DNA from: Bacillales bacterium UBA4682
GTDB taxonomy: Bacteria > Bacillota_I > Bacilli_A > RFN20 > CAG-288
Reading direction: 5' to 3'
Length of the DNA stretch: 64,000 nucleotides
Assembly (NCBI GenBank): GCA_002404995.1
Contig: DHKY01000014.1
Location: forward strand, 7,524 to 71,523
Positions 5,862 to 36,277 of this stretch are shown one piece after another; positions within the stretch are counted from its first letter, which is position 1, and each line of letters begins with the position of its first letter. A model generated the notes under the pieces. The model was not told the DNA's origin and ran no database searches. It was given only the letters and a program-made list of their open reading frames with translations. The position numbers and the translations under genes were made by a program.

Positions 5862-5873
5862 AATAACATTGTC

Positions 5874-6985: not shown

Positions 6986-7347
6986 GTTGCATTATAGCAA
7001 ACGGAAATGCGTTTTCAAATAGAAATTTCATCGAATTTATCGAAACTTTTTGGATGCTAGAATAGGGTTCTATTGTGTTCTGTTTAAGGGCTATGGACGC
7101 ATTGGTTTTGCTTAAATTCATTCAATATCGATAGGTTATTTACTCTTCTTGAAAATCACTTTAACCGCCGTGGTACAATAAATATAGAATCACGTTTTCT
7201 AATATCAAATAATTAAGTGCTATGGTTCCAAGTTACTATTTAAGTAACTAATCTGGTGAAATTGCCAGATGCATTGCCGTTTGGAACTGTTGAAAAAATG
7301 GGGAAATACTTTGGTAGTGTTGAGACTTCATAAAAGGAGACATTAAA

Positions 7348-9162
7348 ATGGATGTAAACGCAGAAAAAATGAATTTCGATGTCAATAGTGTAAGTGTTGG
7401 CACTCTTCTTGGGTATGTTGAGGACAATACAATTGCAATTCCTGAAATTCAAAGACCTTATGTGTGGGAGGCTAAGCAAGTTCGTGATTTGATTGACTCT
7501 CTTTATAAAGGATATCCAATCGGATACATTATCACTTGGAAGAATCCTAACGTGAAGCTTAAGGATGGCTCAACGTCTGAGGGGAAACAAATTCTTATTG
7601 ATGGCCAACAAAGAGTCACTGCCCTTTCAGCGGCTCTTCTTGGAAAAGAAGTCCTTGATGCAGAGTACAAAAAGAAACGAATCAAAATCTCTTTTAACAT
7701 TAAGACCGAAACATTTGATGTTTGCAATCCTGCCAAGGAAAAAAGTCCGGAATGGATTTCGGACATTTCCCGTTTCCTCAAGCCTGGATTAGTGAATATG
7801 TATGAATTTTGTGGAGAATACGCGAAAATTTCTGGACTTGATGCCAATACAGTGAACAACAGAATATCCCGCCTTCTGAGTATTAAGGAATCGAGAGTAG
7901 GAAGAATTGAGTTATCTTCGGAAGCTGACATTGATACTGTAACTGAGATATTTGTGAGAATAAATTCACGTGGAAAGTCACTTTCTCAAGCGGATTTTGT
8001 CATGTCCAAAATCAGCGTTAATGAGAAATTCTCTGGAAATGACATAAGAAAGGCTATCGATTATTTTTCTCACTTTTTGCAAACGCCAACAGATTTTCCA
8101 CATATAAAAGATTGTGACACCGATTTTGCTTCTAAGGACATTTTCAGAAAGATGTCTTGGGCGGCTTCTTATTCAGATAATCTTTATAAGCCAGACTATT
8201 CTGACATGCTTAGAGTTGCTTTCACTTACAAATTCAAAAAAGGGAGACTTCAAGACTTGGTGAGTCTCCTTTCTGGTCGTGACTTTGAAACTAAAGAATA
8301 TAAAGAAGAGATTGCTCAGTCTAGTTTTGAAAGTCTTTATGATGGCGTCAAGGATTTTGTTAACGAAACCAATTACAATCGATACATCATGATTGTTAAA
8401 GGAACTGGAATTATAAACGAGTCCATTAAGCGGTCTCAGGGTGTTATTAATTTTGGATATATCCTTTATTTGCTCATGAAAGAGAAAAAATACCAGCCCT
8501 TTGATATTGAGAAATACGTAATGAAGTGGATTGTTTACTCTATTCTCACACAGCGATATTCTGGCTCTACTGAGACGGGTTTCGAGTACGATGTTAAGCG
8601 TTTAGATGCTTGTGGAAACATTCCCGAATATATTGATTCTCAAGCAGAAGCAGAACTTTCTGACGCTTTTTGGGAAAAGGTTCTTCCAGATCGTTTCAAT
8701 ACTTCAGTAGCTGGTAGTAGCTATTGGTATATTTTTCTTGCTGCACAAATAAAAGAAAATGATCATGCCTTTTTATCAAAAAGTAGTACTGTCAAAGACT
8801 TACTTGAGCAGAGAGGAGATGTTCATCATATTTTCCCGAAAAAATATTTGATTAAAAATGGTATAGATATTAAGCAGCGATATAATCAAATAGCAAATTA
8901 CGTTTATCTACAACAAGAAACAAATATTGCTATTAGCGACAGAGCACCCAACCAGTACTTTAAAGAATTAGAGGAACAGATAAATGGTGGCAAACAACGC
9001 TATGGATGCATACTTTCTCAAGACGAGCTGGAGGCCAATCTTGCCGAAAATGCTATCCCCTCAGGAATTCAGTCAATGGAATACGACTCATATGATAAAT
9101 TCCTTGAGGAACGCCGGAAACTTATGGCTGAAAAGATTAAGAAATATTTTCAAAGCTTTTAG
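7348..9162 (+). CDS. GmrSD-like type IV (modification-dependent) restriction endonuclease: N-terminal DUF262 (ParB-like NTPase/nuclease) and C-terminal DUF1524 (HNH/His-Me finger).
   Basis: N-terminal IAIPEIQRPYVWE...LIDGQQRVTAL (DUF262 motifs). C-terminal DVHHIFPKKYL...NYVYLQQETNIAIS (DUF1524). Confidence 0.8.
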   Translation: MDVNAEKMNFDVNSVSVGTLLGYVEDNTIAIPEIQRPYVWEAKQVRDLIDSLYKGYPIGYIITWKNPNVKLKDGSTSEGKQILIDGQQRVTALSAALLGKEVLDAEYKKKRIKISFNIKTETFDVCNPAKEKSPEWISDISRFLKPGLVNMYEFCGEYAKISGLDANTVNNRISRLLSIKESRVGRIELSSEADIDTVTEIFVRINSRGKSLSQADFVMSKISVNEKFSGNDIRKAIDYFSHFLQTPTDFPHIKDCDTDFASKDIFRKMSWAASYSDNLYKPDYSDMLRVAFTYKFKKGRLQDLVSLLSGRDFETKEYKEEIAQSSFESLYDGVKDFVNETNYNRYIMIVKGTGIINESIKRSQGVINFGYILYLLMKEKKYQPFDIEKYVMKWIVYSILTQRYSGSTETGFEYDVKRLDACGNIPEYIDSQAEAELSDAFWEKVLPDRFNTSVAGSSYWYIFLAAQIKENDHAFLSKSSTVKDLLEQRGDVHHIFPKKYLIKNGIDIKQRYNQIANYVYLQQETNIAISDRAPNQYFKELEEQINGGKQRYGCILSQDELEANLAENAIPSGIQSMEYDSYDKFLEERRKLMAEKIKKYFQSF

Positions 9163-9325
9163 TCTTCCAAATGTTTGACGAGACTATGTCCGCTTATAAG
9201 GCCAATTATCTGATATACTCATAAGTGCCATCTTCATAACCGGCAACAGGACGTCGGTTGTTGAGTAGTCATTTGAAGGAAAATCACGTATAGAGGCTTC
9301 TTTTTTCCTTTATGGCGCGCTGAAA

Positions 9326-10765
9326 ATGACAATAGGGGGATTTATGGATATTTATGAGAAATATAAGATTCATGTAATTAACGGTAGACGTTACTACGAA
9401 TATAACGTGGATGAAAAGCTCCCCTTCCTAGATAATACGATTCCCTATTATTTCAAATACAATGACATTGAAATCTACGATAACCGATGGATGTTTTTGG
9501 CTTTGAAGCTCGTTCAGGAATTGGATAAACGGAACCCAAAGACGGATGACTACTTATTAGGCATACGATATAGCTGGAGCAAGACTGACGTCTTTTCAAA
9601 AACAAAGAAGACGAATTATCTTCCTTTCAGAGATCTCTATCTAAATACTAACCATACTTCGACACACGCTTTGATGAGCATACAATGTCTTCTTCGTGCC
9701 TATGGTGTCAACCCCTCCGATTGTTTTCTCTTAATCAACCGTCATCCTGTCGCAGAACCGGTAGAGGTTAGAGATTACTTTATTGATCAAGAAAGACGCG
9801 GATTTTCCAAGGCTTTGTTGGCTAGACGTTTCAACTTTGCGAGAATAAGCAAGATTCTGTCCAATTTTGAGGTTATCAATAAGATACTGGCAAAGACAAC
9901 GCCGAGTTTTGACAACTTCTATCTTTTTGATGATTACAATTATTTCACAAACTACAAATGCAAAGTCATTGAAAAGGCTGAGATGGTCTATCAAGACAAG
10001 CCGCAGAATATCGTGCTGATTAAGAAATACCTCGACTATTACGATGATTATCTGAGAAACAAGAAGTTCTTCCAGGAATACGATAGCAAAGCCGTGTCCA
10101 TGGAATTCGAGGAACAGATCAAAAAGGAAATCGAATACCTGTTCTCCTCTTTGAAGTCCACAATCATCACTTCCTCTAAGATTTATTCACGCCTGAAGCT
10201 TTTGTATCCTGAGCAAATGAACCAGATAAAGTTCCTCGGCACCCCAAAGGATCTTTTCGAATTCCTTAAACTGAATTTCAACAACACCTACTATTTTCAG
10301 GAGCCTTATATTTCAAAGACTCCGATTTCGAATCTGACCACAGATGAAATCACCACGAACTATGCCTACTCATTGGATGGGTTCGATATCCGGAAACTCA
10401 ATGATTACGCTGACAAGATGCACATCAAACGCATCTCTAATTATTTGGTTTTCATCATCGATTCCTCTGAGGATTACGTCTTAGTCGGGCAGGGCATAAT
10501 GAAAAAGAAATCCCTACTTGATATTGATGACTCCTATTTATCAGAACTTGGCGATGCGCTTTCCTTCTATATCAATAGCTATGGAACTATCGATAGCCGG
10601 ACATACAAAGGATATTCATCCCTCCCTCAACCAAAGATTAATCAGAAAATGGATAAGAACCTTCTTTTTGGTTTGGCTTTATCGTATCTGAAGGACAAAT
10701 TCGATGTGGAGAGTCTAGGCGGAAAATACAAGGACTTTGAGTATCTAATAAAGGCTAAGAAATAA
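9326..10765 (+). CDS. Hypothetical protein (479 aa) with no recognisable motif, immediately downstream of GmrSD.
   Basis: Long intact ORF, Lys/Tyr/Asp-rich, same strand as GmrSD and 160 bp downstream of it. Confidence 0.5.
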   Translation: MTIGGFMDIYEKYKIHVINGRRYYEYNVDEKLPFLDNTIPYYFKYNDIEIYDNRWMFLALKLVQELDKRNPKTDDYLLGIRYSWSKTDVFSKTKKTNYLPFRDLYLNTNHTSTHALMSIQCLLRAYGVNPSDCFLLINRHPVAEPVEVRDYFIDQERRGFSKALLARRFNFARISKILSNFEVINKILAKTTPSFDNFYLFDDYNYFTNYKCKVIEKAEMVYQDKPQNIVLIKKYLDYYDDYLRNKKFFQEYDSKAVSMEFEEQIKKEIEYLFSSLKSTIITSSKIYSRLKLLYPEQMNQIKFLGTPKDLFEFLKLNFNNTYYFQEPYISKTPISNLTTDEITTNYAYSLDGFDIRKLNDYADKMHIKRISNYLVFIIDSSEDYVLVGQGIMKKKSLLDIDDSYLSELGDALSFYINSYGTIDSRTYKGYSSLPQPKINQKMDKNLLFGLALSYLKDKFDVESLGGKYKDFEYLIKAKK

Positions 10766-10848
10766 TAAATACAAAATATTTGCAAAATATTACGAAACTA
10801 TTGCCATTCATATGGCTGCTTTTGTATAATCTTTTCGGAGGTTGGAGC

Positions 10849-11076
10849 ATGGAAAACAAGAAAGAGAACTTCAAGCGCATCTCCGAAAACCGAGTTTCGA
10901 AGATCTTAGTGCTACTCTCTCAGCTAACCAATTTGAGCAACTCTTCTTATTACGAATACACGGATGAGGACATCGAGAAGATCTTTTCGGCTATCGAAGA
11001 AGAGACAAAAAAATCCAAAGAGCTGTTATTGAAAGGAAAGAACAACAAAAAGCGCCAGAAACGCTTTGAGTTGTAA
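10849..11076 (+). CDS. Small hypothetical protein (75 aa).
   Basis: Start chosen at the ATG preceded by GGAGGTTGGAGC. It is 13 bp upstream of the GHKL gene's RBS. Confidence 0.4.
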   Translation: MENKKENFKRISENRVSKILVLLSQLTNLSNSSYYEYTDEDIEKIFSAIEEETKKSKELLLKGKNNKKRQKRFEL

Positions 11077-11091
11077 GAGGAGGACATTTAT

Positions 11092-11970
11092 ATGGATGGA
11101 TTGAAATGGAGATTCCCTGCCGCTAACCACGGCGAAAAAAAGGGAATCAGTTCAGGGGACGCGGAAGCCTTCCGCAAATTCCCTTACCAGGCCTTTGCGC
11201 GAGAGATTCTTCAGAACTCTATCGACGCGAGAGCTTCCGACGAAGAACCGACACGGGTCGAATTCGCTTCTTTCGAAATAAAGAAGGAAGATCTCCCAGG
11301 ATATGCTGATTTGGAAGCCCAAGTGCGTCGCTGCAAAGAGTTCTATCAATATAAGGAAGAATATAAAGAGGCTTACGACAAGATCCTTTCGGTTTTCGAT
11401 AAGGAAACTATCCAGTGTCTCCGCGTCAGCGACTACAACACCAGTGGTTTAGTCGGCGTCGATTCCAACAGCTTGAAGGGAAACAAATTCAATGCCCTTG
11501 CCAAGGGAACAGGCCTTTCTGAGAAGAATGGCTCCCTGTCCGGCGGTTCAAAAGGCGTTGGAAAGAATGCAGCTTTCCTCATGTCTAAGATCAAAACGGT
11601 GTTCTATTCGACCAATGCTAATCAGGACACGGATGGGAATGCCTCTACTCATTTAGGATACATGGGCGTTTCGAACCTTGTTTCCGGTTGGATTGATGAA
11701 CAGCATAAGAACCCTGGAGATGATTACACTCAGGGAACTGGATACTTTTCCTCAGATGATTCAAATGATGCAATTCCCAGTGTATTGGATTTGGACCCAT
11801 CTTGCCACAGAAGAGAAAACCAAAGCGGAACGGATATTTATATTTTAGGGTTCGAGCCAGAATCGGAATGGAGAAACGAAATCATCTGCAGCATCCTGGA
11901 TTCGTTTATGGCTGCTATTACACGCAATCATCTATTGGTCTCCGTTGATGGCCGAGGGAATACTTCGTCG
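11092..11970 (+). pseudogene. GHKL-superfamily (HATPase_c, Hsp90/MORC/sacsin-like) ATPase, N-terminal part only. The ORF runs out of frame into a Fic C-terminal fragment.
   Basis: N-box EILQNSIDA, G1 box DYNTSGL, G2 box GSKGVGKNAAF. Homologous sequence ends around 11970, where frame +2 begins to encode unrelated Fic sequence. Confidence 0.55.
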
Positions 11971-11974
11971 CCCC

Positions 11975-12391
11975 GTTTTGTATCTGTCGTTGTACCTGAA
12001 AGCAAATCGTGTCGAGTATTACGACAGATTGAGTGAGGTCCGTGCCAAGGGCAACTACGAACAGTGGATCAAATTCTTTTTGCGCGGGATTATCGAAACT
12101 TGCGATGACGGCATCAAAACAATTGGAAAGATAAATTCGCTTGTCCGGTCGGACGAAGAAAAGCTTGCCAAAAAAGCCAAAACGGTTTCAATGGTTTTCG
12201 ATTATATCAAGCAGCATCCGATTATTTCTATCGGTGGAGCCGCAATCGCACTTGGGCTGTCCTACAATGGCGTATCCGGTGCAGTCAAAAAGATGGTTGA
12301 AGCTGGCATACTAAACGAAATCACGGCAAAGACCCGAGACCGGGTTTTCGAGTATTCGGGATATATCGATATCTTAAAATCGGGAACTTAA
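11975..12391 (+). pseudogene. C-terminal fragment of a Fic/DOC-family protein (winged-helix tail). The Fic catalytic core is absent.
   Basis: PVLYLSLYLKANRVEYYDRLSEVRAKGNYEQWIKFFLRGIIE... matches the conserved Fic C-terminal module (PILYLSRYI..NR.EYY..L......W..FFL). No upstream HPFx(D/E)GNGR region is present. Confidence 0.5.
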
Positions 12392-12479
12392 TACGCAGGG
12401 GCAACCATCGTTAACCGTTGACATCTCTCTTCCCTAACCAAGGGAAGAAAAAGTTGCTTCGATTACTCCGGCAATCGGA

Positions 12480-13130
12480 TTCTAGTTATGCTCCATCCTA
12501 TGCCGGAAAAGGACCTGTCCAGCCATCCCTTCTGGATCCCTCGGGACTTCTTCAGAAACCACTTGAAGTCGGAGAACAGATGACGAAGAGCTCAAAGCCT
12601 TCTCTTTCAAGGTCGTTGCTCCTTCGGAGTTCCCTTCCTGCTGTGATTGAAAATCCCTTCGCGTCAGCGCGTTCATGGATGACGGAAGTCCCCCTGACGA
12701 ATCCGGTCCTTCCACGCCTTTCTCAGCGGCTCAGCAGTCGGATGGCCGGTCTTGGCGATGTCCTCCTTCTGCGAGGATATACCAAATTTCTTTCCCTTCT
12801 CCTTCGTCTTTCTGCTCAGTCCTACATATAGGTCCCATCCACCTCTGCCTTTCCCAAGGAGACCGAAAACGTATGTCCACACTTCTTGCAGAGTTGTTTT
12901 CCCTGTCTTTGCCCGTAGCAGACGACCCTGCGCGAATGGCAGTAGGGACACAAATTCGGCTTCCTGCCGTTGACAACAGAAAGGAATCCGTCTCTGGCCT
13001 TCCGCGACTGGTATCTTCCGAGTGCGGAAAAAACGGCGACTATCATATGCGATGCTCCCGAGGGTTCCGGAATTCGAGGAAGCGGGAGTATCGCTAAATA
13101 TCTGCCTCTTCGGATTTCGGAACACTTATA
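12480..13130 (-). mobile_element. Degraded IS1595-family transposase remnant (N-terminal zinc ribbon is intact, the rest is frameshifted). The segment is GC-rich relative to its surroundings.
   Basis: Minus-strand ORF 13046..12822 encodes CPYCHSRRVVCYGQRQGKQLCKKCGHTFSVSLGK, i.e. Zn_Tnp_IS1595 (CPHCGS...C..CG..FSVTSGT). Multiple overlapping short ORFs and a local GC jump. Confidence 0.45.
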
Positions 13131-13254
13131 TTTAGCGAATCCTTTATAGCACAGGAAAGAGATACCAACACTTAACCAGGAATATATTAAAGCATACTAA
13201 AAACCCTCCTTTTTCATGAATTTGAGCAAAAGAAAAGAGCCCATGATTTAAAGC

Positions 13255-13713
13255 GAAGGATAAACCATAGTGTCCCAGTCCTCGGACGCAGTATAATTCC
13301 TGTATTACGTTGCTGTAGTTCCGAGGCCGGCCATGGGCATCGCCCGAAGCAGCACGGAAGAGAACACGGGAAATAAATATGGGTGTGCCATGGCTGCAAG
13401 AGGATATTCTCGGACAAAAGCTGCACGAGCCTGTCCTATACCAAGCTGAAAACCTCGCAGATCAGGATGCCCCCTGTTCATGATCTCGGAAGGGCCGACC
13501 CTAAGATAGGTGCTCACCAAGCGCATGTGTCATCTTCTGCGGAAGGAGTAAAGGCAGAAAATCCGGAAAACCGCCGGGAACAAGGTGATACTCCAACGGA
13601 GAAGTTGGGGACTTGTCGGGACATGCGCTTGATCTACCGATTGATCTTCTTTCCGGTAAAACATTCAGAAAATGGGGAGTATTTGGCCATTAGCAGCACT
13701 ATTGTTTGTCTTC
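13255..13713. mobile_element. MITE-like element C (459 bp) with the same terminal-inverted-repeat family (GAAGGATAAACCATAGTGTCCC ... GCAGCACTATTGTTTGTCTTC).
   Basis: The left ~75 nt are near-identical to element B (CGCAGTATAATTCCTGTATTACGTTGCTGTAGTTCCGAGGCCGGCC). The right ~60 nt are similar to element A's right end. Confidence 0.5.
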
Positions 13714-13852: not shown

Positions 13853-14121
13853 ATGGCTACAGCAGATCTCACTGTAGAATTGGACGATGACTTAAAGAAA
13901 CGTTCTGAGGCATTATAGGATGAACTTGGGATTGACCTAACCACGGCTATCAATGTTTTCCTCCATAAATCCATAGCTGTAGGTGGTTTTCCCTTCGATG
14001 TAAGAATCGAGGAACCCAACAAGAAGACAACGCTTGCTTTGCACGAGGCAGAGAAATTAGCCAAAGCTCCTGGTATCAAGGACCTTAACGCCGAAGATGC
14101 CTTAAAAAGCCTTAAGAAATA
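13853..14121 (+). pseudogene. RelB/DinJ-family antitoxin gene with an in-frame TAG at codon 22.
   Basis: MATADLTVELDDDLKKRSEAL*DELGIDLTTAINVFLHKSIAVGGFPFDV... is the RHH DinJ signature. TAG is at 13916-13918. There is no toxin ORF downstream. Confidence 0.5.
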
Positions 14122-14239
14122 AACAGGAAGGTTGTATAGATATCTCGTTTCAAAAAGGACTATAAGCGGGGCCATCTCAATATAAACCTTTACATAACGC
14201 CATAAGTCCAAAATAGAATTAATATTGCAAGAAATAAGA

Positions 14240-14377
14240 TAGATGACAAAGGAACACTCTTTCTAGGCTTAAAGGAATTCCTTATCAATCCAGATTCCAT
14301 AAAATCCTAAAAGATCTTTTAAAACCACATTTGTTTTCTAAAACATAAAATTGCAAGAACTTGCAAAAATTTTAGTT
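14240..14377 (+). repeat. 138-bp direct repeat, identical to 15637..15774. It consists of the last ~38 codons of a COG1373 ATPase gene plus ~65 bp of 3' flank, including the palindrome TTGCAAGAACTTGCAA.
   Basis: Exact duplication. A third copy of 'TGCAAGAACTTGCAAAAATTTTAGTTA' at 14413..14441 sits between a TATATAAT box and the RBS of the ATPase gene. Confidence 0.8.
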
Positions 14378-14453
14378 ATAAATCTTTTTTGGCTTCTTCA
14401 AGTTATATAATAAATGTGCAAGAACTTGCAAAAATTTTAGTTAGGAGGCAGAT

Positions 14454-15704
14454 ATGATTGAAAGAAACGAATATCTGAGAAAGCTCATTGACCGAATGGG
14501 AAATGGAAGGATCAAGGTAATCACTGGCATCAGAAGATGCGGTAAATCCTATTTGTTATTTGAAATATTTTATAACTATCTGCTTGAAAACGGGGTTGAT
14601 AAGTCACATATCATCGCTTTACAACTAGATGACAGGCTGAATATCAAATTCCAAAATCCAGAATATTTGTGTCAATATGTTCATAATCAGATTACTGACG
14701 ACGGGAAGTACTATATACTTTTAGATGAAGTGCAATTCGTGGATCATTTTGAAAGGGTTTTGAATTCTTTCCTGCACATCAAAAACGCAGATGTTTATGT
14801 GACTGGAAGCAATGCGAAATTTCTTTCTTCGGACATTATTACTGAATTCAGAGGAAGAGGAGACCAAATTTATTTATCGCCGCTGTCTTTCAAAGAATAT
14901 TATGATTATTGCAAAATAGATTTTGATGATGCGTGGAATGAATATTCCATGTATGGAGGCATGCCTTTTCTTTTGACTTGCAAAACAGACGAACAAAAAG
15001 TTCATTATTTAGAAAACCTTTTCACTGAGACCTACATAAAAGATATTGTCAATCGTCACAATATCCGAGACACCGACGTTTTAGAAGATGTCCTGAATAT
15101 TGTTTCTTCAAGTGTCGGTTCATTGACAAACCCTAATAAGTTATCGAATTCATTCAAATCTATCAAGAGCATCGATGTGGCACCTAACACAATCAAGCAA
15201 TATCTTGATTATTGCATTGACTCCTTTTTGTTGCAAAAAGCATACCGGTACGATGTCAAAGGAAAGAAATACATTGACACGCCTTTAAAATACTATTTCA
15301 CCGATATAGGCTTAAGAAACGCAAGACTAGGATTCAGACAGCAGGAAGAAAACCACATCATGGAAAACATCCTATTTAACGAATTGGTAATCCGTGGATA
15401 TAAAGTAGACGTTGGTGTTGTAACCACCAGTGAAAAGAACCCAAATGGTAACTATGTAAGAAAAAACCGAGAAGTTGATTTTGTCTGTAATCTCGGATAT
15501 GAGAGATACTACATACAATCCGCGTTTGCTCTCGATGATGCAGAAAAGAAAGAGCAAGAAGAAAAATCCTTGCTGAATATCCATGACGGTTTTAAAAAAA
15601 TCATCATTGTAAGAAATAACATCAAGAAATGGATAGATGACAAAGGAACACTCTTTCTAGGCTTAAAGGAATTCCTTATCAATCCAGATTCCATAAAATC
15701 CTAA
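14454..15704 (+). CDS. AAA+ ATPase of the COG1373 / AAA_14-DUF4143 family (P-loop ATPase fused to a C-terminal PD-(D/E)xK-like domain).
   Basis: VITGIRRCGKSYLL Walker A at the N-terminus. C-terminal NREVDFVCNLGYERYYIQSAFAL (E.D..-type nuclease-fold motif). Paralog of 34833..36068. Confidence 0.8.
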   Translation: MIERNEYLRKLIDRMGNGRIKVITGIRRCGKSYLLFEIFYNYLLENGVDKSHIIALQLDDRLNIKFQNPEYLCQYVHNQITDDGKYYILLDEVQFVDHFERVLNSFLHIKNADVYVTGSNAKFLSSDIITEFRGRGDQIYLSPLSFKEYYDYCKIDFDDAWNEYSMYGGMPFLLTCKTDEQKVHYLENLFTETYIKDIVNRHNIRDTDVLEDVLNIVSSSVGSLTNPNKLSNSFKSIKSIDVAPNTIKQYLDYCIDSFLLQKAYRYDVKGKKYIDTPLKYYFTDIGLRNARLGFRQQEENHIMENILFNELVIRGYKVDVGVVTTSEKNPNGNYVRKNREVDFVCNLGYERYYIQSAFALDDAEKKEQEEKSLLNIHDGFKKIIIVRNNIKKWIDDKGTLFLGLKEFLINPDSIKS

Positions 15705-15774
15705 AAGATCTTTTAAAACCACATTTGTTTTCTAAAACATAAAATTGCAAGAACTTGCAAAAATTTTAGTTAGA
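15637..15774 (+). repeat. Downstream copy of the 138-bp direct repeat (3' end of the ATPase gene + flank with the TTGCAAGAACTTGCAA palindrome).
   Basis: Identical to 14240..14377. Confidence 0.8.
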
Positions 15775-15963
15775 ATGCTTGTCCTCAAAGAAAACTGCCG
15801 ATGTTGTCAGAGAGGGAACTGACGCAAATTTCACCAGTCCCTTATCCTGTTATGCGAGGAATGCACTTTAGTCTATTATTTGCACATATAAAGCACACGT
15901 TTAGCTACCTTCATTTCCCTCGAATCGTATAATGAAGTCAGATACAAGTAAGGAGGCATATAT

Positions 15964-16218
15964 ATGGCAAGTGTAAACGTCACAATTCGAATGGATGCGG
16001 ATGACAAGGTCAAGGCGGAGAAGCTCTTCTCCGAACTTGGACTCACAATGAATGATGCCTTCAATATGTTCGCTAAGCAGTCCATCAGAGAGCAGGGCAT
16101 CCCCTTCAAAGTCACAAAGAACACCGGCGTCCAATACATAGACCGAAGCCTTCTCGACAAAATGTTGGAAGAATCCGAAAAGAAGCACCACAAAATCTAT
16201 GAGGAACTAGCCAAATAG
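15964..16218 (+). CDS. RelB/DinJ-family type II antitoxin.
   Basis: MASVNVTIRMDADDKVKAEKLFSELGLTMNDAFNMFAKQSIREQGIPF is the DinJ RHH signature. Confidence 0.7.
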   Translation: MASVNVTIRMDADDKVKAEKLFSELGLTMNDAFNMFAKQSIREQGIPFKVTKNTGVQYIDRSLLDKMLEESEKKHHKIYEELAK

Positions 16219-16224
16219 GCTGTT

Positions 16225-16500
16225 ATTTCTCAAAAGATGACATACTCTTTATCTACTCAAAGCTGAAAGACGATTTCGAGGAAATGATGGAATCCGGGTG
16301 ATGGAATGCTGGACTCTGCGATAAACACGCAACTCCAGACCTTCGATTCTAGGAATCCGGATCCGACCGGCATCGACAAGATTGCAAGATTGTCTTTTGG
16401 ATTAGTCATCCTTTCATAGATGAAAACAAAGGAATCGCTGCTAAGGTCTTGGATATAGGCCTTGATATGAACAGCAGTTTCTTTAAGGCAACAAGCGAAG
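16225..16500 (+). pseudogene. Probable YafQ/RelE-family toxin remnant downstream of dinJ, broken by frameshifts and stops.
   Basis: Fragments SKLKDDFEEMMESG* and WNAGLCDKHATPDLRF* in different frames resemble the YafQ K/D-rich N-terminus and the W.GY.E.HI.PD.L core. No intact ORF. Confidence 0.3.
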
Positions 16501-16898
16501 AGATAATCGAGGAATTCCTCGGTCTGGCCGCTGGGAAAATCGACTATCCTAGTTTTCTTTCCTGGGTCAATTCGAAAATCTGATTTATTGAAGTACTGGG
16601 TTTTCCATACCAGAGGGCTTAAACGCATTCTTTTTATTTCTTGAAGAAGCTTTTTTGTCTGATAACGATACTCGAGTTCCTTCTGGTAGCAGACTCAAGT
16701 CCGATTCGAGTGATTGTTTAGGCTTTTATCTCAAACTTTAAGGGAGAATATAGGAGCGATAGTTTCTGAACTTGTAGGTTGCAACAGCTTCCTAACCTCT
16801 GTATTCTTTCTGTTTCTATTCTAAATACGTATTCGATTTCAAGGTAGAAGCGAAATCTTTTGCTCTTATTTGATTAAAAACAGTTCTTTATCCAATGG

Positions 16899-20676: not shown

Positions 20677-20974
20677 GTCTTAAAATATCATTGTTCAATA
20701 ACATTGTTGCATAGCCAAGAATTCAAATAATCTACCACTTAATTCAATAAGATAACTATATTTCGAGCAATAATTGCTTTATCAAAACAGTCTTTTCAAA
20801 GATAAATGCGAGACGAAATATTTTTTGTGCAGATTTCATCACAATATTTTAAGTTTCAAAATTCCGATTATTTTGATTTTATAAATCGTCTTTTATAATT
20901 TTATGATTTGTTACTGCTTAACATTGAGTTTTTTTCTCAATTTTAATACAATATTTAAAATGGAGGCAGGATTT

Positions 20975-22240
20975 ATGCTTTTACAGTTCAATTTCGAAAA
21001 CTATGGTCCTTTCAAAGAAGAAGCATCGCTAAACCTTGAAGCAGCACCCTATGCTGAATTCAAAGAACAGATTCGAACAATCGGGAACAAGAAAATTCTT
21101 CCTTTAGCCGCTATCTATGGTGCAAATGCCAGTGGAAAGTCTTTTACCTACAACGCTTTCAATTACAGGAAGTTCAGGGTGCTTTTTTCCAGGAGCCTTG
21201 ATTTAGAAAAAAGCAAAACGACCCTTAATCCTTTTCCGGAAGCAGTGCCTTTCCGATTAGACAAAGAAAGTGAAAACAGTCCTTCCTCCTTTGAAGTGAT
21301 CTTAACCTCCGAAATAGACGGGAAAGAAATCACTCTTCAATATGGATTTTCTGTATTTCAGCGCCAGATTGTTAAAGAATGGCTTTATCAACTTCCTCAG
21401 CGGAGTACTTCTGCCGTAAAAGAATACCTCTTGCGAGACAGAGAAACTATTAGTATAAAGATTCCCGAATTAGATGATTCCATCAAAACAACTTTAGAGA
21501 AATCTACTCCTTCTTCAGCACTTGTCTTATCTTTTGGTTCCAGACTAAATGTGGAACCATTTAAAACTATTTTTAACTTTTTTAATATTTCCTTAGTTAC
21601 CGACTTTGGTAACCTTTCTGAAATGTTTTTCCGTGAGCACCTGCTTCCTATAGGTATAGCTGAAAACAAAGAAAGCCTATCGGATTGTGTTTCGTTTCTT
21701 CAGAGCTTCGAACCTTCTATCAAGAATATTCGATTAGAGGAAATCAAGCAGGACAATAATCAAAAGCAATATTTTATTAAAACCATACATAGAACGATAA
21801 ACGGAGAAGAAGTGGAATTTCGAAGGGAAAACGAATCCTCAGGAACAAAGAAAAGGTTCCAATTCTATAGTTTTCTTCGCCAGGCAATCAGTACGGGAAG
21901 TGTCCTTTTCGTTGATGAACTCAATTCACGTCTTCATCCTCTGCTTTTGCGGAATATTCTTCTGCTTTTTCTTTCCCAGGAAAAGAATCCAAACCATTCA
22001 CAGCTAATTTTCACTTGCCATGAGCCTTGGCTGTTAAGCGCAAAAATTCTACGCCGCGATGAAATTTACTTTACAAACAAAAATCTCAAAACCCAAGCTT
22101 CTGAGCTCTATTCCTTGGCTGAGTTCAAAGATGAAAAGGGAATGAAAATACGTTCCGATGAGGACTTTGAAAAGAATTACCTTCTCGGAAAATATGATGG
22201 AATCCCCGTTCTTTCAAATATGGGAATAAAAGGAGAATAG
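20975..22240 (+). CDS. AAA_21/OLD-type ATPase (AbiLi-like) of a two-gene abortive-infection-type module.
   Basis: FNFENYGPFKEEASLNL...IYGANASGKS N-terminal Walker A typical of AAA_21/AbiEii-like ATPases, and FVDELNSRLHP Walker B. Start chosen after the GGAGG RBS. The ORF track's upstream extension begins at 20903. Confidence 0.65.
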   Translation: MLLQFNFENYGPFKEEASLNLEAAPYAEFKEQIRTIGNKKILPLAAIYGANASGKSFTYNAFNYRKFRVLFSRSLDLEKSKTTLNPFPEAVPFRLDKESENSPSSFEVILTSEIDGKEITLQYGFSVFQRQIVKEWLYQLPQRSTSAVKEYLLRDRETISIKIPELDDSIKTTLEKSTPSSALVLSFGSRLNVEPFKTIFNFFNISLVTDFGNLSEMFFREHLLPIGIAENKESLSDCVSFLQSFEPSIKNIRLEEIKQDNNQKQYFIKTIHRTINGEEVEFRRENESSGTKKRFQFYSFLRQAISTGSVLFVDELNSRLHPLLLRNILLLFLSQEKNPNHSQLIFTCHEPWLLSAKILRRDEIYFTNKNLKTQASELYSLAEFKDEKGMKIRSDEDFEKNYLLGKYDGIPVLSNMGIKGE

Positions 22241-22244
22241 GCAA

Positions 22245-22895
22245 ATGGGACTTGGCAGACCAGGGAAAAAGCCCCGAAAGCAAGGGTCACGACGAGAACT
22301 TTTTGAAAATATCCTGATTGTTACGGATGGTGAGAAAACAGAAGCTAATTATTTTCAGGGACTACGTAATTCATTTCCTGAGCCTATCAGAAATAAGATA
22401 AGCATAAAAATCCTAGCTAAGCTTGATACACAAGAACTTGTTGAACGATCACTGAAAGAACAGAGAGAAGACCCTAGGGAACGGGAAATCTGGATAGTTT
22501 TCGATAAAGACAATCGGCCTGATGATTTTGACAGAATAATATCAAGTGCCAAAAAGCATGGTATTAATATTGCTTGGTCCAATCCCTGTATTGAGATTTT
22601 CTTTCACGCTTATTATGGGAAAAGGCCGAAAAACACAGATGCAAAGCAATGTATTTCTGCTTTTTCTATCGATTTTCAAAAAGCAACCAAGAAAGAATAC
22701 TTGAAAAACGACAAAGAAATTTATGATATCCTGTGTCATTCAGGAGATGAGAAGAAAGCTATTGAATTTTCCAAAAAGAAATTAAAGCAATCAATAAATG
22801 AAGCCGAAAGTAAAAAGCCTTCTTCTTATTGTCCGGGTTCTACTCTTCATGAATTAGTTGGTAAAATCACAAGCCATCGCCCGGAGAACAAATAA
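22245..22895 (+). CDS. RloB-like protein (TOPRIM-like, AbiLii-like partner).
   Basis: ILIVTDGEKTEANYFQGL matches the RloB N-terminal hallmark (ILIVcEGEKTEpnYF). It starts 4 bp after the ATPase stop. Confidence 0.65.
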   Translation: MGLGRPGKKPRKQGSRRELFENILIVTDGEKTEANYFQGLRNSFPEPIRNKISIKILAKLDTQELVERSLKEQREDPREREIWIVFDKDNRPDDFDRIISSAKKHGINIAWSNPCIEIFFHAYYGKRPKNTDAKQCISAFSIDFQKATKKEYLKNDKEIYDILCHSGDEKKAIEFSKKKLKQSINEAESKKPSSYCPGSTLHELVGKITSHRPENK

Positions 22896-34765: not shown

Positions 34766-34812
34766 ATGTGTTTTTCGTTGGAACTTTTACAATTTTGTTG
34801 AAATTCCAACGA
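34766..34812 (+). repeat. 47-bp direct repeat (second copy at 36069..36115) containing an 8-bp perfect inverted repeat CGTTGGAA-N20-TTCCAACG. It precisely brackets the COG1373 ATPase gene.
   Basis: TTTTCGTTGGAACTTTTACAATTTTGTTGAAATTCCAACGATAA is present 20 bp upstream of the ATG and again starting at the first base after the stop codon. Confidence 0.75.
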
Positions 34813-34832
34813 TAATTCGATATTCTATCTTT

Positions 34833-36068
34833 ATGGATAATATTATTTTACGGAAGCAATATCTCGATAAAATCCGGCCGTTTTATGATTCAAAATATAT
34901 TAAGGCTATTACCGGAATAAGACGTTGCGGAAAGTCCGAGCTCATTAAACAGATAATTAAAGAAATCAAAGATCGCGGAGTTGATGACCAACACATTATT
35001 TTCCTGGATTTGGAAGGAAGAAGCGGTGAAGGAATCACAACACGACTTAAACTAGAGAAGAAGCTTGATTCTATGATTACGGATGACAACAAATACTACA
35101 TTTTCATAGATGAAGTGCAGCACATCAAAAAATTCGAAGAAGCAATAGCATCTGTACGGATAAGTTATAATTGTTCCCTATTTGTTACAGGCAGCAATTC
35201 CAGATTGTTACATGGCAAATTGCAAGATAGATTGACAGGCCGTGCAAAAGAATTCGAGCTGTATCCTTTTTCTTATAAAGAAACTTTGGAATACAAAGCC
35301 GCAAGTGAAATAGAAATAAGTGATGATGATTTTCAAGACTATTTAGAGAACGGGGGAAGGCCTCAGCGATATGAGGAGCAAGACAAATCAGCAATAAAAG
35401 ATTACCTACGTTCCCTTTGTCATTTCATCATCGAAAAAGATGTCTTTGGCTCCCATAATAAAATAAATCGTTTGGAATTTGAAAATATAGCGAAATACAT
35501 TATTTCAACTACAGGCAAGCCTTTTTCGGCTTTATCAATTGCAAAACATTTAAGAAACACAAAGACAAAAGAAGAGCAAAAGAATCTTTCTCAAACAGTC
35601 AATAATTACGTTCAATATCTTCAGGATTGCTATTTCATCACAGCATGCAATCCATATTATCTAAAGGATAAAGAAAGACTAAACGGAGTGAAAAAATACT
35701 ATCCCGTTGATACTGGATTAAGAAGTGCATTCAATGAAACGATAGAATTTGACGACACCTTTGCCCTAGAAGCTGTTATCTTTAACGAATTGATTATGCG
35801 GGGATACGAAGTCAGTTACGGAAAGCTACGGGATGGAGAAATTGATTTCGTTGTAAAAAAAGACACAAGAAAATGTCTGATCCAGGTAGCCTATTCCATT
35901 TCAAACCAAACCACTTTTGACCGAGAATACAAAGCATTTGACAAGGTCAAGGATCATTCCCCGAAATATGTTCTTTCTCTTGATAAGAAAGACACCTCTA
36001 ATAATGGAATCACCCATCTGAATATAATTGATTTCTTGCTTGGAAAGAAAGATATCTGCCTTAGCTGA
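34833..36068 (+). CDS. AAA+ ATPase of the COG1373 / AAA_14-DUF4143 family (second paralog).
   Basis: AITGIRRCGKSELI Walker A. C-terminal DGEIDFVVKKDTRKCLIQVAYSI nuclease-fold motif. Confidence 0.8.
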   Translation: MDNIILRKQYLDKIRPFYDSKYIKAITGIRRCGKSELIKQIIKEIKDRGVDDQHIIFLDLEGRSGEGITTRLKLEKKLDSMITDDNKYYIFIDEVQHIKKFEEAIASVRISYNCSLFVTGSNSRLLHGKLQDRLTGRAKEFELYPFSYKETLEYKAASEIEISDDDFQDYLENGGRPQRYEEQDKSAIKDYLRSLCHFIIEKDVFGSHNKINRLEFENIAKYIISTTGKPFSALSIAKHLRNTKTKEEQKNLSQTVNNYVQYLQDCYFITACNPYYLKDKERLNGVKKYYPVDTGLRSAFNETIEFDDTFALEAVIFNELIMRGYEVSYGKLRDGEIDFVVKKDTRKCLIQVAYSISNQTTFDREYKAFDKVKDHSPKYVLSLDKKDTSNNGITHLNIIDFLLGKKDICLS

Positions 36069-36115
36069 TTTTCGTTGGAACTTTTACAATTTTGTTGAAA
36101 TTCCAACGATAAATC
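36069..36115 (+). repeat. Downstream copy of the 47-bp direct repeat with the CGTTGGAA/TTCCAACG palindrome.
   Basis: Identical over 45 of 47 nt to 34766..34812. Confidence 0.75.
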
Positions 36116-36277
36116 GTTTTGTTTCTTCCACATCTTGGAAAAACATTTGGATTTGCCGGATTTCTAGCATTCGTTTTTCCAGGCACCAAACAGGCATAGA
36201 CGTTGACAAATTACAATCAAACCGATATCTTTATTAGTCTATTAAGTTTTAATAAATATATAAAGGAGCACTAAACA

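What the first reader, a model, noticed from the sequence alone, without database searches (positions are those of the whole stretch)
14240..15774. COG1373 (AAA_14/DUF4143) ATPase-nuclease gene framed by a 138-bp direct repeat containing the palindrome TTGCAAGAACTTGCAA (three copies)
The last 38 codons of the gene plus 65 bp of 3' flank are repeated verbatim upstream of the gene. An extra copy of TGCAAGAACTTGCAAAAATTTTAGTTA sits between a TATATAAT box and the RBS. Either a tandem gene array collapsed by recombination, or the gene moves as a cassette using this repeat. The 16-bp palindrome placed between promoter and RBS also looks like an operator. Family members combine a P-loop ATPase with a PD-(D/E)xK-like C-terminal domain (EVDFV motif present), are widespread and functionally uncharacterised. 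The gene here is embedded between antitoxin genes.
Basis: seen in the sequence. Interest (0 to 1): 0.6.

Follow-up and report, generated by a model that had tools for sequence, protein, structure and literature searches.

The report
Defence-gene module framed by operator-like repeats
A candidate anti-phage ATPase gene (PDC-S01/COG1373) carries three copies of an almost invariant 24-nt palindromic DNA site, two around its promoter and one after its stop codon.

Summary
The repeat is real. 141 nt are repeated verbatim (14238-14378 = 15632-15772), and a 27-nt motif occurs three times (0 expected by chance). The gene (14454-15704) is an AAA_14+DUF4143 protein of the PADLOC candidate family PDC-S01.

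In at least 10 independent genomic contexts the 24-nt core TGCAAGAACTTGCAAAAATTTTAG sits at fixed positions: distal about -102, proximal about -37 (between a TATAAT box and the RBS), and often about +36-42 after the stop. Core identity is 97-100%, against 71% for the CDS and 35-53% for the flanks.

A second paralogue in the window (34833-36068, 29% identical) has a different palindrome over its promoter and again after its stop. Across 73 relatives, a lineage-specific palindrome lies between the -10 box and the RBS. In 48% of them part of it recurs upstream of the promoter, against 7% in controls.

Best reading: these are operator-like DNA sites, probably bound by the module's own winged-helix ATPase. 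The 141-nt repeat is an ancestral partial tandem duplication kept alike by gene conversion.

Cassette-like behaviour is also seen: sharp unit edges, solo motifs, and host-derived flanking duplications in 10 of 69 loci against 0 of 84 controls. No recombinase, empty-site pair or circle was found.

The parts
14238..14378 (+). Upstream copy of the 141-nt verbatim repeat. It contains a non-functional remnant of the last 24 codons of a g1-type gene, its 3' UTR and the distal motif.
   Evidence: The four-way alignment with strain L002 shows the same left junction TAA|GATAGATG and gene conversion between the copies.
14345..14378 (+). Distal motif (core 14352-14375), about -102 from the ATG and upstream of the promoter.
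   Evidence: Present with 0-1 mismatch at -99 to -104 in 8 of 10 independent contexts.
14404..14411 (+). TATATAAT, a -10-like box.
   Evidence: A TATAAT-like box lies 3-6 nt upstream of the proximal core in most listed contexts. No good -35 was found by the scan.
14417..14443 (+). Proximal motif (core 14417-14440). It spans the likely transcription start and 5' UTR and abuts the RBS.
   Evidence: 100% identical in 8 independent contexts at -35 to -39. It is a weak hairpin (-3.7 kcal/mol, z +0.35).
14444..14448 (+). GGAGG ribosome-binding site.
   Evidence: Read directly from the sequence.
14454..15704 (+). g1: a 416-aa AAA_14 + DUF4143 protein of PADLOC family PDC-S01. It has an AAA+ core, a lid, a winged helix and a PD-(D/E)xK-like fold with QxA in place of ExK.
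   Evidence: Pfam, PADLOC E 2e-114, AlphaFold model with pLDDT 86, Foldseek hits to SSO1545, STAND and Orc1/Cdc6 proteins, motif alignments.
15632..15772 (+). Downstream copy of the 141-nt repeat: the real gene 3' end, the 3' UTR and the downstream motif.
15739..15772 (+). Downstream motif (core 15746-15769), 42 nt after the stop. It marks the right edge of the horizontally shared unit.
   Evidence: Present 36-42 nt after the stop in win/L002, L022, L024/L134 and L012; decayed in L026; absent in L025 and L119. The spacer sequence has diverged but its length is kept. Between-context homology ends at 15772/15773.
34769..34819 (+). g2 upstream motif. The palindrome TCGTTGGAA...TTCCAACGA overlaps a promoter-like TTGAAA-17-TATTCT (34798-34826).
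   Evidence: It forms a strong hairpin (-14.5 kcal/mol, z -3.7).
34833..36068 (+). g2: a second PDC-S01 paralogue of 411 aa, 29% identical to g1.
36066..36116 (+). g2 downstream motif copy (96% identical to the upstream copy). It starts at the stop codon.
   Evidence: It is conserved in 4 contexts of the g2 lineage, and the loop sequence is shared by both copies within each genome.

Best explanation
The 24-27-nt palindromic motif is a cis-acting DNA site (operator) that belongs to a compact, self-contained PDC-S01 gene module.

The module runs in this order: distal site, -10 box, proximal site, RBS, gene, about 40 nt of 3' UTR, third site.

Inferred mechanism. The module's only product is an AAA+ ATPase with a winged-helix domain and a degenerate nuclease-like domain. 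I infer that it binds these sites and represses its own promoter. The proximal site covers the transcription start. The distal and downstream sites would add cooperativity or looping, or insulate the module from its surroundings. This would keep a potentially harmful defence protein at a low, context-independent level wherever the module lands.

Consequences of the sites being direct repeats 65 nt and about 1.4 kb apart. They are substrates for ordinary homologous or unequal recombination. That would account for the 141-nt repeat, which is a partial tandem duplication whose first copy was mostly deleted and which is kept near-identical by gene conversion. It would also account for solo motifs where the gene has been lost, and for assembly breaks at the repeat.

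Shown:
- the position, copy number, orientation and extreme conservation of the sites;
- lineage-specific equivalents in a second paralogue and across the family;
- the winged-helix fold in the model;
- gene conversion between the copies;
- the edges of the shared unit.

Inferred:
- that the binder is the COG1373 protein;
- that binding represses the promoter;
- that the third site has a role.
For: Position and conservation of the g1 sites:
- The motif occurs only next to g1-lineage genes, always on the gene's strand, at three fixed positions, and nowhere else in 0.83-1.18 Mb of held loci.
- In 10 independent contexts the proximal core is 100% identical (8 copies) and the distal core 96.9%. 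The first 300 nt of the CDS are 70.6% identical and the adjacent non-coding DNA 35-53%.
- A TATAAT-like box is kept 3-6 nt upstream of the proximal core in most listed contexts.

Independent replicate:
- g2 (29% identical) has a different palindrome overlapping TTGAAA-17-TATTCT and again after its stop. This holds in 4 contexts.
- A third paralogue, L105b, has yet another palindrome on both sides.

Family-wide pattern:
- A palindrome lies between the -10 box and the RBS. The median palindrome score is 7.5, against 5 in CDS control windows.
- The pre-RBS segment shares a word of 10 nt or more with its own -220..-60 region in 48% of 73 loci, against 6.7% of permuted controls. For words of 14 nt or more the figures are 30% against 1%. 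The shared words lie at -105 to -130.

DNA site versus RNA hairpin:
- The distal copy lies upstream of the promoter.
- The g1 hairpin is weak (z -1.8, and +0.35 for the proximal copy) and gets no terminator call.
- There is no sense-strand G.U bias: 8 G.T against 23 A.C.

The protein:
- The model (pLDDT 86) has a three-helix plus beta-hairpin winged helix with a conserved KGK tip.
- The nearest folds include Orc1/Cdc6 bound to origin DNA.
- The unit encodes no other protein, yet the motif stays invariant across hosts titled Erysipelotrichaceae, Bacillales and Bacillota.

The downstream copy looks selected:
- Its spacer sequence has diverged, while its distance (36-42 nt) and the core are kept.

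The long repeat is a duplication scar:
- The window and L002 share the same left junction, and at 5 or more sites both copies of a strain agree while the strains differ.
Against: - No binding, transcription-start or expression data exist; the binder is inferred by elimination.
- STAND-type relatives use their winged helix for oligomerisation, not DNA binding (one search gives fold similarity only).
- 100% conservation of all 24 positions is stricter than typical operators. It hints at an additional or different constraint.
- The proximal copy is degenerate in two lineages that keep the other two copies (L012, L022).
- The downstream copy is missing from most of the wider family, so a three-site mechanism cannot be general.
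- The operator model does not by itself explain why unit edges coincide with motif edges to within about 3 nt in four contexts.
- It also does not explain why 10 of 69 relatives are framed by duplicated host sequence.
Confidence: 0.5

Rival explanations
1. The motif is primarily a recombination site of a small mobile cassette. The unit would excise as a circle by recombination between its flanking copies and re-integrate by a single crossover at a solo motif or at a short stretch of homology. The recombination could be site-specific, through a factor in trans or the COG1373 protein itself, or simply RecA-mediated. The position of the sites relative to the promoter would then be secondary.
For: - Homology between three unrelated contexts runs exactly from the left edge of the upstream motif (14342/14345) to the last base of the downstream motif (15772/15773). 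The right edge is precise to about 3 nt in four contexts.
- Solo motifs without a gene occur in two contexts: L126/L129/L130 and L138.
- The terminal redundancy varies in length: 164, 138, 62, 41 and about 34 nt.
- The two copies evolve in concert in g1 and g2.
- 10 of 69 relatives are framed by direct repeats against 0 of 84 control ORFs (Fisher p = 2e-4). In at least 5 of these the repeat is host sequence: the 3' end or terminator of the upstream gene, 25-178 nt, 89-96% identical. That is the classic mark of Campbell-type integration of a circle.
- Many contigs of about 1.4 kb end in the repeat.
- COG1373 is listed among genes shared between gut genera by HGT (PMC10782964).
- The units are AT-rich relative to the window: GC 0.34-0.35 against 0.42.
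Against: - No integrase or transposase lies in the unit or within about 10 kb.
- No occupied/empty pair was found despite four attempts.
- No tandem array of identical units or circular contig was found. The L001 end overlap is explained by the chromosomal repeat itself.
- There is no hit on plasmids or phages.
- The proximal copy, which is the best conserved, and the fixed geometry of distal site, -10 box and proximal site are not explained by recombination.
- In the wider family, homology ends at the stop codon with no downstream site.
- The motif lacks integron attC or dif architecture (by inspection).
- The control ORFs are mostly operon-internal genes, so the enrichment may partly reflect single-gene HGT units in general.
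Confidence: 0.2
2. The motifs act at the RNA level. The same hairpin in the 5' UTR and 3' UTR of the mRNA would control stability, translation or termination, for example as a 5' attenuator/terminator or as a site for an RNA-binding form of the protein.
For: - The proximal copy is transcribed and abuts the RBS; the downstream copy lies in the 3' UTR.
- In some lineages (L087, L088, L090, L091, L095) the proximal palindrome looks like a canonical bidirectional intrinsic terminator: a GC stem with A- and T-tracts, MFE -14 to -28 kcal/mol.
- In L034, L047 and L061 the framing repeat is a terminator hairpin.
- The g2 motif folds strongly (z -3.7 to -6.0).
Against: - The distal copy lies upstream of the promoter and is 97% conserved.
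- The g1 hairpin is marginal (-5.9 kcal/mol, z -1.8), and the proximal copy is not better than shuffles (z +0.35).
- No terminator-like site is called at any motif copy.
- Family-wide, non-Watson-Crick positions favour A.C (23) over G.T (8), and antisense folds are slightly more stable (p = 0.003). That is the opposite of what a sense-strand RNA structure predicts.
- No Rfam family matches.
Confidence: 0.12
3. Nothing functional is present. The repeats are only neutral debris from a tandem duplication of the gene that later collapsed.
For: - The 73 coding nt and most of the 3' UTR in the upstream copy have no conceivable function there.
- The window and L002 share one ancestral junction.
Against: - The motif is invariant across at least 10 contexts while neighbouring non-coding DNA is unalignable.
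- The extra proximal copy is not part of the tandem register (family D2).
- The same architecture recurs with unrelated sequences in g2 and L105b, and three full copies of a lineage-specific palindrome occur in L061 and L031.
Confidence: 0.05

Closest known systems
PDC-S01 (PADLOC phage-defence candidate) = COG1373 / Pfam AAA_14 + DUF4143
   Same: Both window proteins match the family models end to end (PDLC04787, E 2e-114 and 2e-123; AAA_14 and DUF4143 above Pfam cut-offs). Both sit in AT-rich islands, g1 among other defence genes.
   Different: Papers describe the family only as an abundant, unvalidated ATPase + PD-(D/E)xK candidate (PMC12988326, PMC3424549). No cis-elements, regulation or flanking repeats were found in the searched literature. 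This clade also lacks the ExK catalytic motif.
Archaeal Orc1/Cdc6 initiators and their ORB sites
   Same: Both are AAA+ plus winged-helix proteins, and they are among the nearest solved folds (2qby, 2v1u). It is established knowledge that orc1/cdc6 genes lie next to the repeated dyad-containing sites their products bind.
   Different: No replication role is suggested here. The sites are direct repeats around a promoter and after the gene, not inverted sites around an unwinding element. There is an extra C-terminal nuclease-like domain, and sequence identity is only 10-12%.
Multi-operator, loop-forming autorepression (gal OE/OI, lac O1-O3, deo, lambda OL-OR) and autoregulated toxin-antitoxin or defence genes
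   Same: Palindromic sites at about -55 and about +1 to +24 relative to the inferred start, plus an auxiliary distant site. The regulator is encoded in cis. This resemblance rests on recalled knowledge.
   Different: The presumed regulator is a 416-aa AAA+ ATPase, not a small HTH/RHH repressor. The third site lies 1.4 kb away, beyond the gene end. All 24 positions are invariant.
Integron gene cassettes / CALIN arrays (attC sites)
   Same: A single gene is bounded by imperfect palindromes in direct orientation. The identity of the copies stops just after a GTTA. TA genes are neighbours.
   Different: No integron integrase was found. There is no array of different cassettes sharing the site. The unit has its own promoter. 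The hairpin is short and weak. The same site recurs in unrelated Bacillota genomes only beside this gene. An extra copy lies inside the 5' UTR.
att-flanked integrative elements lacking their own integrase (CIME-like), or Campbell-type integration
   Same: The X-unit-X layout has imperfect direct repeats. In relatives the repeats consist of the 3' end or terminator of the upstream host gene. Solo sites also exist.
   Different: The unit is only about 1.4-1.6 kb with one gene. No integrase lies nearby. The repeat length varies from 25 to 178 nt between lineages. Excision has not been demonstrated.

Membership tests
PDC-S01 / COG1373 (AAA_14 + DUF4143) | N-terminal AAA_14 P-loop domain with Walker A GxxGxGK[ST] and Walker B hhhhDE | tested here: met
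   PF13173 E 1.9e-32 (g1) and 5.9e-30 (g2). GIRRCGKS and LLDEVQ / FIDEVQ are conserved.
PDC-S01 / COG1373 (AAA_14 + DUF4143) | C-terminal DUF4143 domain | tested here: met
   PF13635 E 2.6e-17 and 7.2e-17, above the 28.1-bit cut-off. PADLOC PDLC04787 matches over the full length.
PDC-S01 / COG1373 (AAA_14 + DUF4143) | Intact PD-(D/E)xK catalytic signature (D ... (D/E)xK) | tested here: not met
   E304 and D342 (EVDFV) are kept. Beta-3 reads YIQ-x-[A/T/V/S...] in g1, g2 and 25 further relatives at 33% identity or more. A distant paralogue (L129) has the canonical IEVK. Activity through other residues cannot be excluded.
PDC-S01 / COG1373 (AAA_14 + DUF4143) | Anti-phage activity | not testable with these tools
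   The family is described as an unvalidated candidate (PMC12988326).
Autoregulatory operator of a cis-encoded DNA-binding protein | Dyad-symmetric site overlapping the core promoter or transcription start | tested here: met
   The g1 proximal core starts 5 nt after TATAAT. The g2 palindrome overlaps TTGAAA-17-TATTCT. A palindrome between the -10 box and the RBS is family-wide. The transcription start itself is inferred.
Autoregulatory operator of a cis-encoded DNA-binding protein | Site conserved above the neutral level and changing with the protein lineage | tested here: met
   Core 97-100% identical against CDS 71% and flanks 35-53%. The g1, g2 and L105b lineages have distinct motifs.
Autoregulatory operator of a cis-encoded DNA-binding protein | Encoded protein has a DNA-binding domain | tested here: inconclusive
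   The model has a winged helix at 208-282, and the fold resembles Orc1/Cdc6-DNA complexes. It resembles STAND proteins equally, and their winged helix does not bind DNA.
Autoregulatory operator of a cis-encoded DNA-binding protein | Protein binds the site and represses transcription | not testable with these tools
   Needs EMSA or footprinting and reporter assays.
Integron gene cassette (attC) | Integron integrase and attI, or at least an array of cassettes each ending in an attC | tested here: not met
   No Phage_integrase hit among neighbours. The motif occurs only around g1 in 64 kb and only beside g1-type genes elsewhere.
Integron gene cassette (attC) | attC of 57-141 nt with R''-L''...L'-R' (RYYYAAC ... 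GTTRRRY) folding into a stable bulged hairpin; cassette usually promoterless | tested here: not met
   The palindrome is about 35 nt at -5.9 kcal/mol, z -1.8. GTTAGAA, GTTAGGA and GTTATAA fit GTTRRRY only partly. The unit carries its own -10 box. No attC model was run.
Transposon / insertion sequence | Transposase gene, terminal inverted repeats, short fixed-length target duplication, multiple copies | tested here: not met
   The single gene is an AAA+ ATPase. The terminal repeats are direct. Flanking duplications in relatives are 25-178 nt and variable. There is one copy per locus.
Intrinsic (rho-independent) terminator | GC-rich stem immediately followed by a U-tract | tested here: not met
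   No terminator-like site is called at any g1 or g2 motif copy. Some other lineages do have terminator-like palindromes.
REP / BIME / MITE-type dispersed repeats | Many copies dispersed in intergenic regions of a genome | tested here: not met
   Three copies in 64 kb, all at g1. None elsewhere in 0.83 Mb of loci. Only 21 metagenome stretches carry the exact core, and all but four lie beside a g1-type gene.
Known RNA family (Rfam) | Match to a curated covariance model | tested here: not met
   The only Rfam hits in the window are Staphylococcus-1 RNA and a fluoride riboswitch, both elsewhere.

The most novel reading that the evidence does not exclude
PDC-S01/COG1373 units could be a previously unrecognised kind of minimal mobile cassette. 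This would be a single gene whose AAA+/winged-helix/degenerate-nuclease product recognises its own roughly 24-35-nt palindrome. The product, or RecA acting on the repeats it protects, would drive excision as a circle and single-crossover re-integration beside host terminators or at solo sites. That would explain why this candidate defence gene is among the most abundant and most horizontally shared genes in prokaryotes. The operator and the recombination site would then be the same DNA element.
Probability: 0.12. Interest if true: 0.85.

Novelty: new variant of a known kind. Interest (0 to 1): 0.5.

Why it matters
One recent survey reports PDC-S01 as the fourth most common defence candidate in prokaryotes (PMC12988326). 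Nothing is known about how it is controlled, what it recognises, or why it spreads so readily.

This locus gives a concrete, testable handle:
- an invariant 24-nt site, with lineage-specific equivalents, that the protein may bind;
- a hint that in this large clade the 'nuclease' domain has lost its catalytic ExK, so the protein may act as a sequence-specific DNA-binding ATPase;
- two co-resident paralogues with unrelated sites, which form a natural test of orthogonal specificity.

The framing repeats, solo sites and host-sequence duplications suggest that these single-gene modules pass through circular or tandem intermediates. If confirmed, that would bear on how defence genes move between genomes without a dedicated recombinase.

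Tried and rejected
1. Empty-site search. I looked up the window's RelB and the lipoprotein next to g2, and the LacI gene flanking the Firmicute copy together with a 69%-identical orthologue. The contigs simply end at the repeat. The related species is syntenic on one side only and has no motif. No occupied/empty pair was found.
2. Circular element. L001 (1491 nt) has 97-nt overlapping ends, but the chromosomal 141-nt repeat explains this. Rejected as evidence.
3. Phage or plasmid carriage. There is no exact core in viral contigs and only weak partial CDS hits in phages and plasmids.
4. Terminator reading for g1 and g2. Rejected by the scans and folding.
5. Sense-strand RNA structure across the family. 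Rejected by the G.U / A.C asymmetry test.
6. dif/Xer-like or attC-like site. Considered by inspection only; the architecture does not fit. No model was run.
7. RelB as the binder of the downstream motif. Rejected because the motif follows g1 into contexts without RelB.
8. Leader peptide. An ATG precedes TGCAAG in the window's proximal copy, but the base before the core varies (T/A/C/G), so there is no conserved ATG.
10. Source organism. It could not be named, so I make no claim of cross-phylum transfer. Hosts of relatives are taken from record titles only.
11. tRNA genes as island borders. ARAGORN finds none.
Full report
OBSERVATION

The window holds a direct repeat at 14238-14386 and 15632-15780 (149 nt, 98%). 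The verbatim part is 141 nt, 14238-14378 = 15632-15772. It consists of the last 73 coding nt of the gene (24 codons including the stop, not 38) plus 68 nt of 3' flank.

The 27-nt string TGCAAGAACTTGCAAAAATTTTAGTTA occurs three times on the + strand, at 14352, 14417 and 15746, with none expected by chance. The middle copy lies between TATATAAT (14404-14411) and GGAGG (14444-14448), ahead of the ATG at 14454. The same layout is present in independently assembled contigs of related strains (L002-L010), so it is not an artefact.

THE GENE

ORF 14454-15704 encodes a 416-aa protein with AAA_14 and DUF4143 domains. It matches the PADLOC candidate family PDC-S01 end to end (E 2e-114).

An AlphaFold model (pLDDT 86, pTM 0.86) shows four parts:
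- an AAA+ core;
- a helical lid;
- a three-helix plus beta-hairpin winged helix at about residues 208-282;
- an alpha-beta-beta-beta-alpha-beta nuclease-like fold.

Foldseek finds the archaeal AAA+ protein SSO1545, STAND NB-ARC modules (Apaf-1, plant NLRs, Avs4) and Orc1/Cdc6 initiators bound to origin DNA. No relative has a solved structure by sequence search.

The nuclease signature is incomplete. E304 and D342 (EVDFV) are kept, but the next strand reads IQSA (g1) or IQVA (g2). In 25 further relatives down to 33% identity it reads YIQ-x-variable. A distant paralogue keeps the canonical IEVK. The nuclease may therefore be inactive in this clade; this is an inference.

The literature describes PDC-S01 only as a very abundant, unvalidated ATPase + PD-(D/E)xK candidate (PMC12988326; PMC3424549). 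COG1373 appears in a list of genes shared between gut genera by HGT (PMC10782964). The family is large: 6587 cluster representatives at E <= 1e-10.

A SECOND COPY OF THE PATTERN IN THE SAME WINDOW

A paralogue at 34833-36068 (411 aa) is only 29% identical to g1. It is framed by its own 51-nt direct repeat, 34769-34819 and 36066-36116 (96%). That repeat contains a different palindrome, TCGTTGGAA...TTCCAACGA.
- The upstream copy overlaps a promoter-like TTGAAA-17-TATTCT.
- The downstream copy begins at the stop codon.
- Both gene regions are AT-rich: GC 0.34-0.35 against 0.42 for the window.

THE G1 MOTIF IN OTHER GENOMES

Close relatives of g1 occur in unrelated neighbourhoods:
- a RelB/Fic island;
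- between an ABC transporter and a LacI/GH43 cluster;
- beside a type I R-M/AbiJ island;
- several others.

The exact core occurs only beside g1-lineage genes and always on the gene's strand. It takes three positions: distal about -102, proximal about -37, and downstream about +36 to +42.

Conservation over ten independent contexts:
- proximal core: 100% identical (8 copies);
- distal core: 96.9% identical (8 copies);
- first 300 nt of the CDS: 70.6%;
- adjacent non-coding DNA: 35-53%.

A TATAAT-like box is kept 3-6 nt upstream of the proximal core in most listed contexts.

The downstream copy is intact in four contexts, decayed in one and absent in at least two. Where it is present, the spacer to the stop codon has diverged in sequence but not in length. 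That argues the copy is selected.

Nucleotide homology between unrelated contexts runs from the left edge of the upstream motif (14342/14345) to the last base of the downstream motif (15772/15773).

THE G2 LINEAGE AND THE WIDER FAMILY

The g2 lineage has four contexts at 66-100% identity. All keep the palindrome arms at the promoter, and all have a downstream copy, decayed in one. The loop differs between lineages but is the same in both copies within a genome. That is concerted evolution. A third paralogue (L105b) has yet another palindrome on both sides.

In 80 loci from distinct species at 54-85% identity:
- Almost every gene has a palindrome between a TATAAT box and the RBS. It typically ends ...GCAAAAATnTTCAAT-AGGAGG, and the g1 motif is a variant of this.
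- The segment before the RBS shares an exact word of 10 nt or more with its own -220..-60 region in 48% of 73 loci, against 6.7% of permuted controls. For 14 nt or more the figures are 30% against 1%. The shared words lie at -105 to -130, just upstream of the -35 box.
- Between-species homology rarely extends left of about -140 and ends at the stop codon.

The conserved family unit is therefore distal site, promoter, proximal site and gene. A third site after the gene is a feature of some lineages: g1, g2, L105b, L061 and L031.

DNA SITE OR RNA STRUCTURE?

- The g1 hairpin is weak (-5.9 kcal/mol, z -1.8). The proximal copy is no better than shuffled sequence (z +0.35).
- No motif copy is called as a terminator.
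- The distal copy is upstream of the promoter.
- Across the family, non-Watson-Crick positions in the palindrome are A.C (23) more often than G.T (8), and antisense folds are slightly more stable (p = 0.003). This is the opposite of what a sense-strand RNA hairpin predicts.
- No Rfam family matches.

I therefore read the motifs as double-stranded DNA sites.

THE LONG REPEAT

A four-way alignment of the upstream and downstream copies from the window and from strain L002 shows the same left junction, TAA|GATAGATG. At five or more positions both copies of one strain agree while the strains differ.

This indicates one ancestral partial duplication whose copies are still being homogenised by gene conversion. 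The upstream copy has picked up private changes in L002 (93% identity between its copies) but not in the window (100% over 141 nt). The 73 coding nt upstream are debris.

Similar but independent tails, made of each lineage's own 3' UTR, precede the distal motif in L012 (62 nt) and L022 (41 nt).

CASSETTE-LIKE BEHAVIOUR

Solo motifs, about 35-40 nt of motif with no gene, occur in two contexts:
- L126/L129/L130, next to a different COG1373 paralogue and a RelB gene;
- L138, in an intergenic region near genes that look, from their translations alone, like a pseudouridine synthase, a NUDIX hydrolase and leucyl-tRNA synthetase.

In the wider clade, 10 of 69 testable loci are framed by a direct repeat at E < 1e-8, against 0 of 84 other long ORFs in the same loci (Fisher p = 2e-4).

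In at least five of these the repeated piece is host DNA. It is the 3' end or the terminator of the intact upstream gene, and an 89-96% identical copy of 25-178 nt lies 0-63 nt after the COG1373 stop. An X-unit-X layout of this kind is what single-crossover integration of a circle produces.

Other routes are not excluded: long variable target duplications, or tandem duplication followed by loss of the second unit. The control set is also imperfect, because it consists mostly of operon-internal genes.

Searches for supporting evidence were negative:
- No integrase or transposase lies in or near the units.
- No occupied/empty pair was found.
- There was no plasmid or phage carriage.
- The overlapping ends of the 1.49-kb contig L001 are explained by the chromosomal repeat.

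INTERPRETATION

The best-supported account is that the motif is an operator-like site of a self-contained PDC-S01 module. The binder is most likely the module's own winged-helix ATPase. It is the only protein that travels with the site across hosts titled Erysipelotrichaceae, Bacillales and Bacillota.

In this account the sites bracket the promoter, and in some lineages a third site follows the gene for cooperativity, looping or insulation. Because the sites are direct repeats, ordinary recombination between them yields the duplication scar, the gene conversion, the solo sites and the assembly breaks.

Confidence is about 0.5. Binding and repression are inferred, and the complete invariance of all 24 positions is stricter than expected for an operator.

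A cassette model in which the motif is primarily a recombination site keeps about 0.2. An RNA-level role keeps about 0.12. 'Neutral debris only' is refuted for the motif but is correct for the roughly 100-nt tail. The operator and cassette readings are not mutually exclusive.

COMPARISON WITH KNOWN SYSTEMS AND NOVELTY

- The gene is a member of PDC-S01/COG1373 by domain content, but it fails the canonical ExK test.
- The layout works like multi-operator autorepression, and it recalls Orc1/Cdc6 genes sitting beside their ORB sites.
- It is not an integron cassette, an insertion sequence, a REP-type repeat, a terminator or a known Rfam element (see the membership table).
- I found no description of conserved cis-elements or framing repeats for this family in the searched literature.

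I rate it a new variant of a known kind, with interest about 0.5.

Noticed in passing
window 34769-36116: A second PDC-S01 paralogue (34833-36068, 29% identical to g1) is framed by its own 51-nt direct repeat. The repeat carries a different, strongly folding palindrome that overlaps a TTGAAA-17-TATTCT promoter. Two co-resident paralogues therefore have unrelated sites.
   Followed up: yes
g1 residues 340-357 (window about 15471-15524); g2 and 25 relatives: The PD-(D/E)xK-like domain keeps E304 and D342, but QxA/QxV replaces the catalytic ExK throughout this clade. A distant paralogue (L129:2079-3332) has IEVK. The 'nuclease' may be inactive.
   Followed up: partly
L031, L034, L035, L055, L061 (also L046, L047, L094, L098): COG1373 units sit just after an intact host gene. 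They are followed by an imperfect copy (25-178 nt, 89-96% identical) of that host gene's 3' end or terminator. This X-unit-X layout is typical of single-crossover integration of a circle. The mechanism is unexplained.
   Followed up: partly
L126:1304-1327, L129:1896-1919, L130:631-654, L138:2136-2159: Solo copies of the g1 motif occur without a g1 gene. In L129 the solo motif lies about 156 nt beyond the stop of a different COG1373 paralogue on the opposite strand, near a RelB gene 78% identical at the nucleotide level to the window's.
   Followed up: partly
L121, L122, L123, L125, L127, L132, L137: A g1-lineage variant lacks roughly residues 84-155, which include Walker B. It carries only the proximal motif and recurs in several human-gut contigs. 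It is in frame in L122 and split across frames in others. It could be a pseudogene or a shortened form.
   Followed up: no
window 13853-14123: A RelB-family antitoxin gene with an in-frame TAG (pseudogene) lies directly upstream of the repeat. An intact RelB is at 15964-16218. No toxin partner was identified among the adjacent ORFs tested (16257-16628 has no Pfam or PADLOC hit).
   Followed up: partly
window 2127-12391 and 20903-22895: The neighbourhood is a decayed defence island. It holds an HNH endonuclease (2127-3059), a GmrSD-like/HEC-05 gene (7348-9162), a truncated PDC-M33A (11092-12036), a C-terminal SoFic fragment (11945-12391) and an AAA_21 + RloB pair (20903-22895).
   Followed up: partly
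window 5735-5794 and 13273-13332; 12400-13700: A 60-nt repeat (97%) links two segments. The GC-rich stretch at 12.4-13.7 kb (GC 0.47) has only overlapping ORFs with no Pfam hits and interrupts the defence genes. It may be a remnant of a mobile element.
   Followed up: no
window 1311-1363 and 3825-3877: A direct repeat (83%) ends ...GGTTCAAtTcCTGTCGTCCGCACCA and looks like a tRNA 3' end, yet ARAGORN calls no tRNA in the window. These may be att-site remnants of integrated elements. They flank the HNH gene and the Staphylococcus-1 RNA hit.
   Followed up: partly
window 1952-2082 and 49009-49096: Two Rfam matches: Staphylococcus-1 sRNA (RF03112, 109.9 bits) and a fluoride riboswitch (RF01734, 43.1 bits).
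   Followed up: no
window 27898-27987 (- strand gene 27783-32018): Eight tandem 9-nt units encode a (GDK)n tract near the C-terminus of a 1411-aa putative surface protein.
   Followed up: no
L139:1-2566, L088:2576-5855, L068:2595-5239, L105:3001-6867, L120/L111: Diverged COG1373 paralogues often lie within a few kb of each other, in tandem, convergent or divergent orientation. In L139 the g1-type motif pair sits between two tandem paralogues.
   Followed up: no
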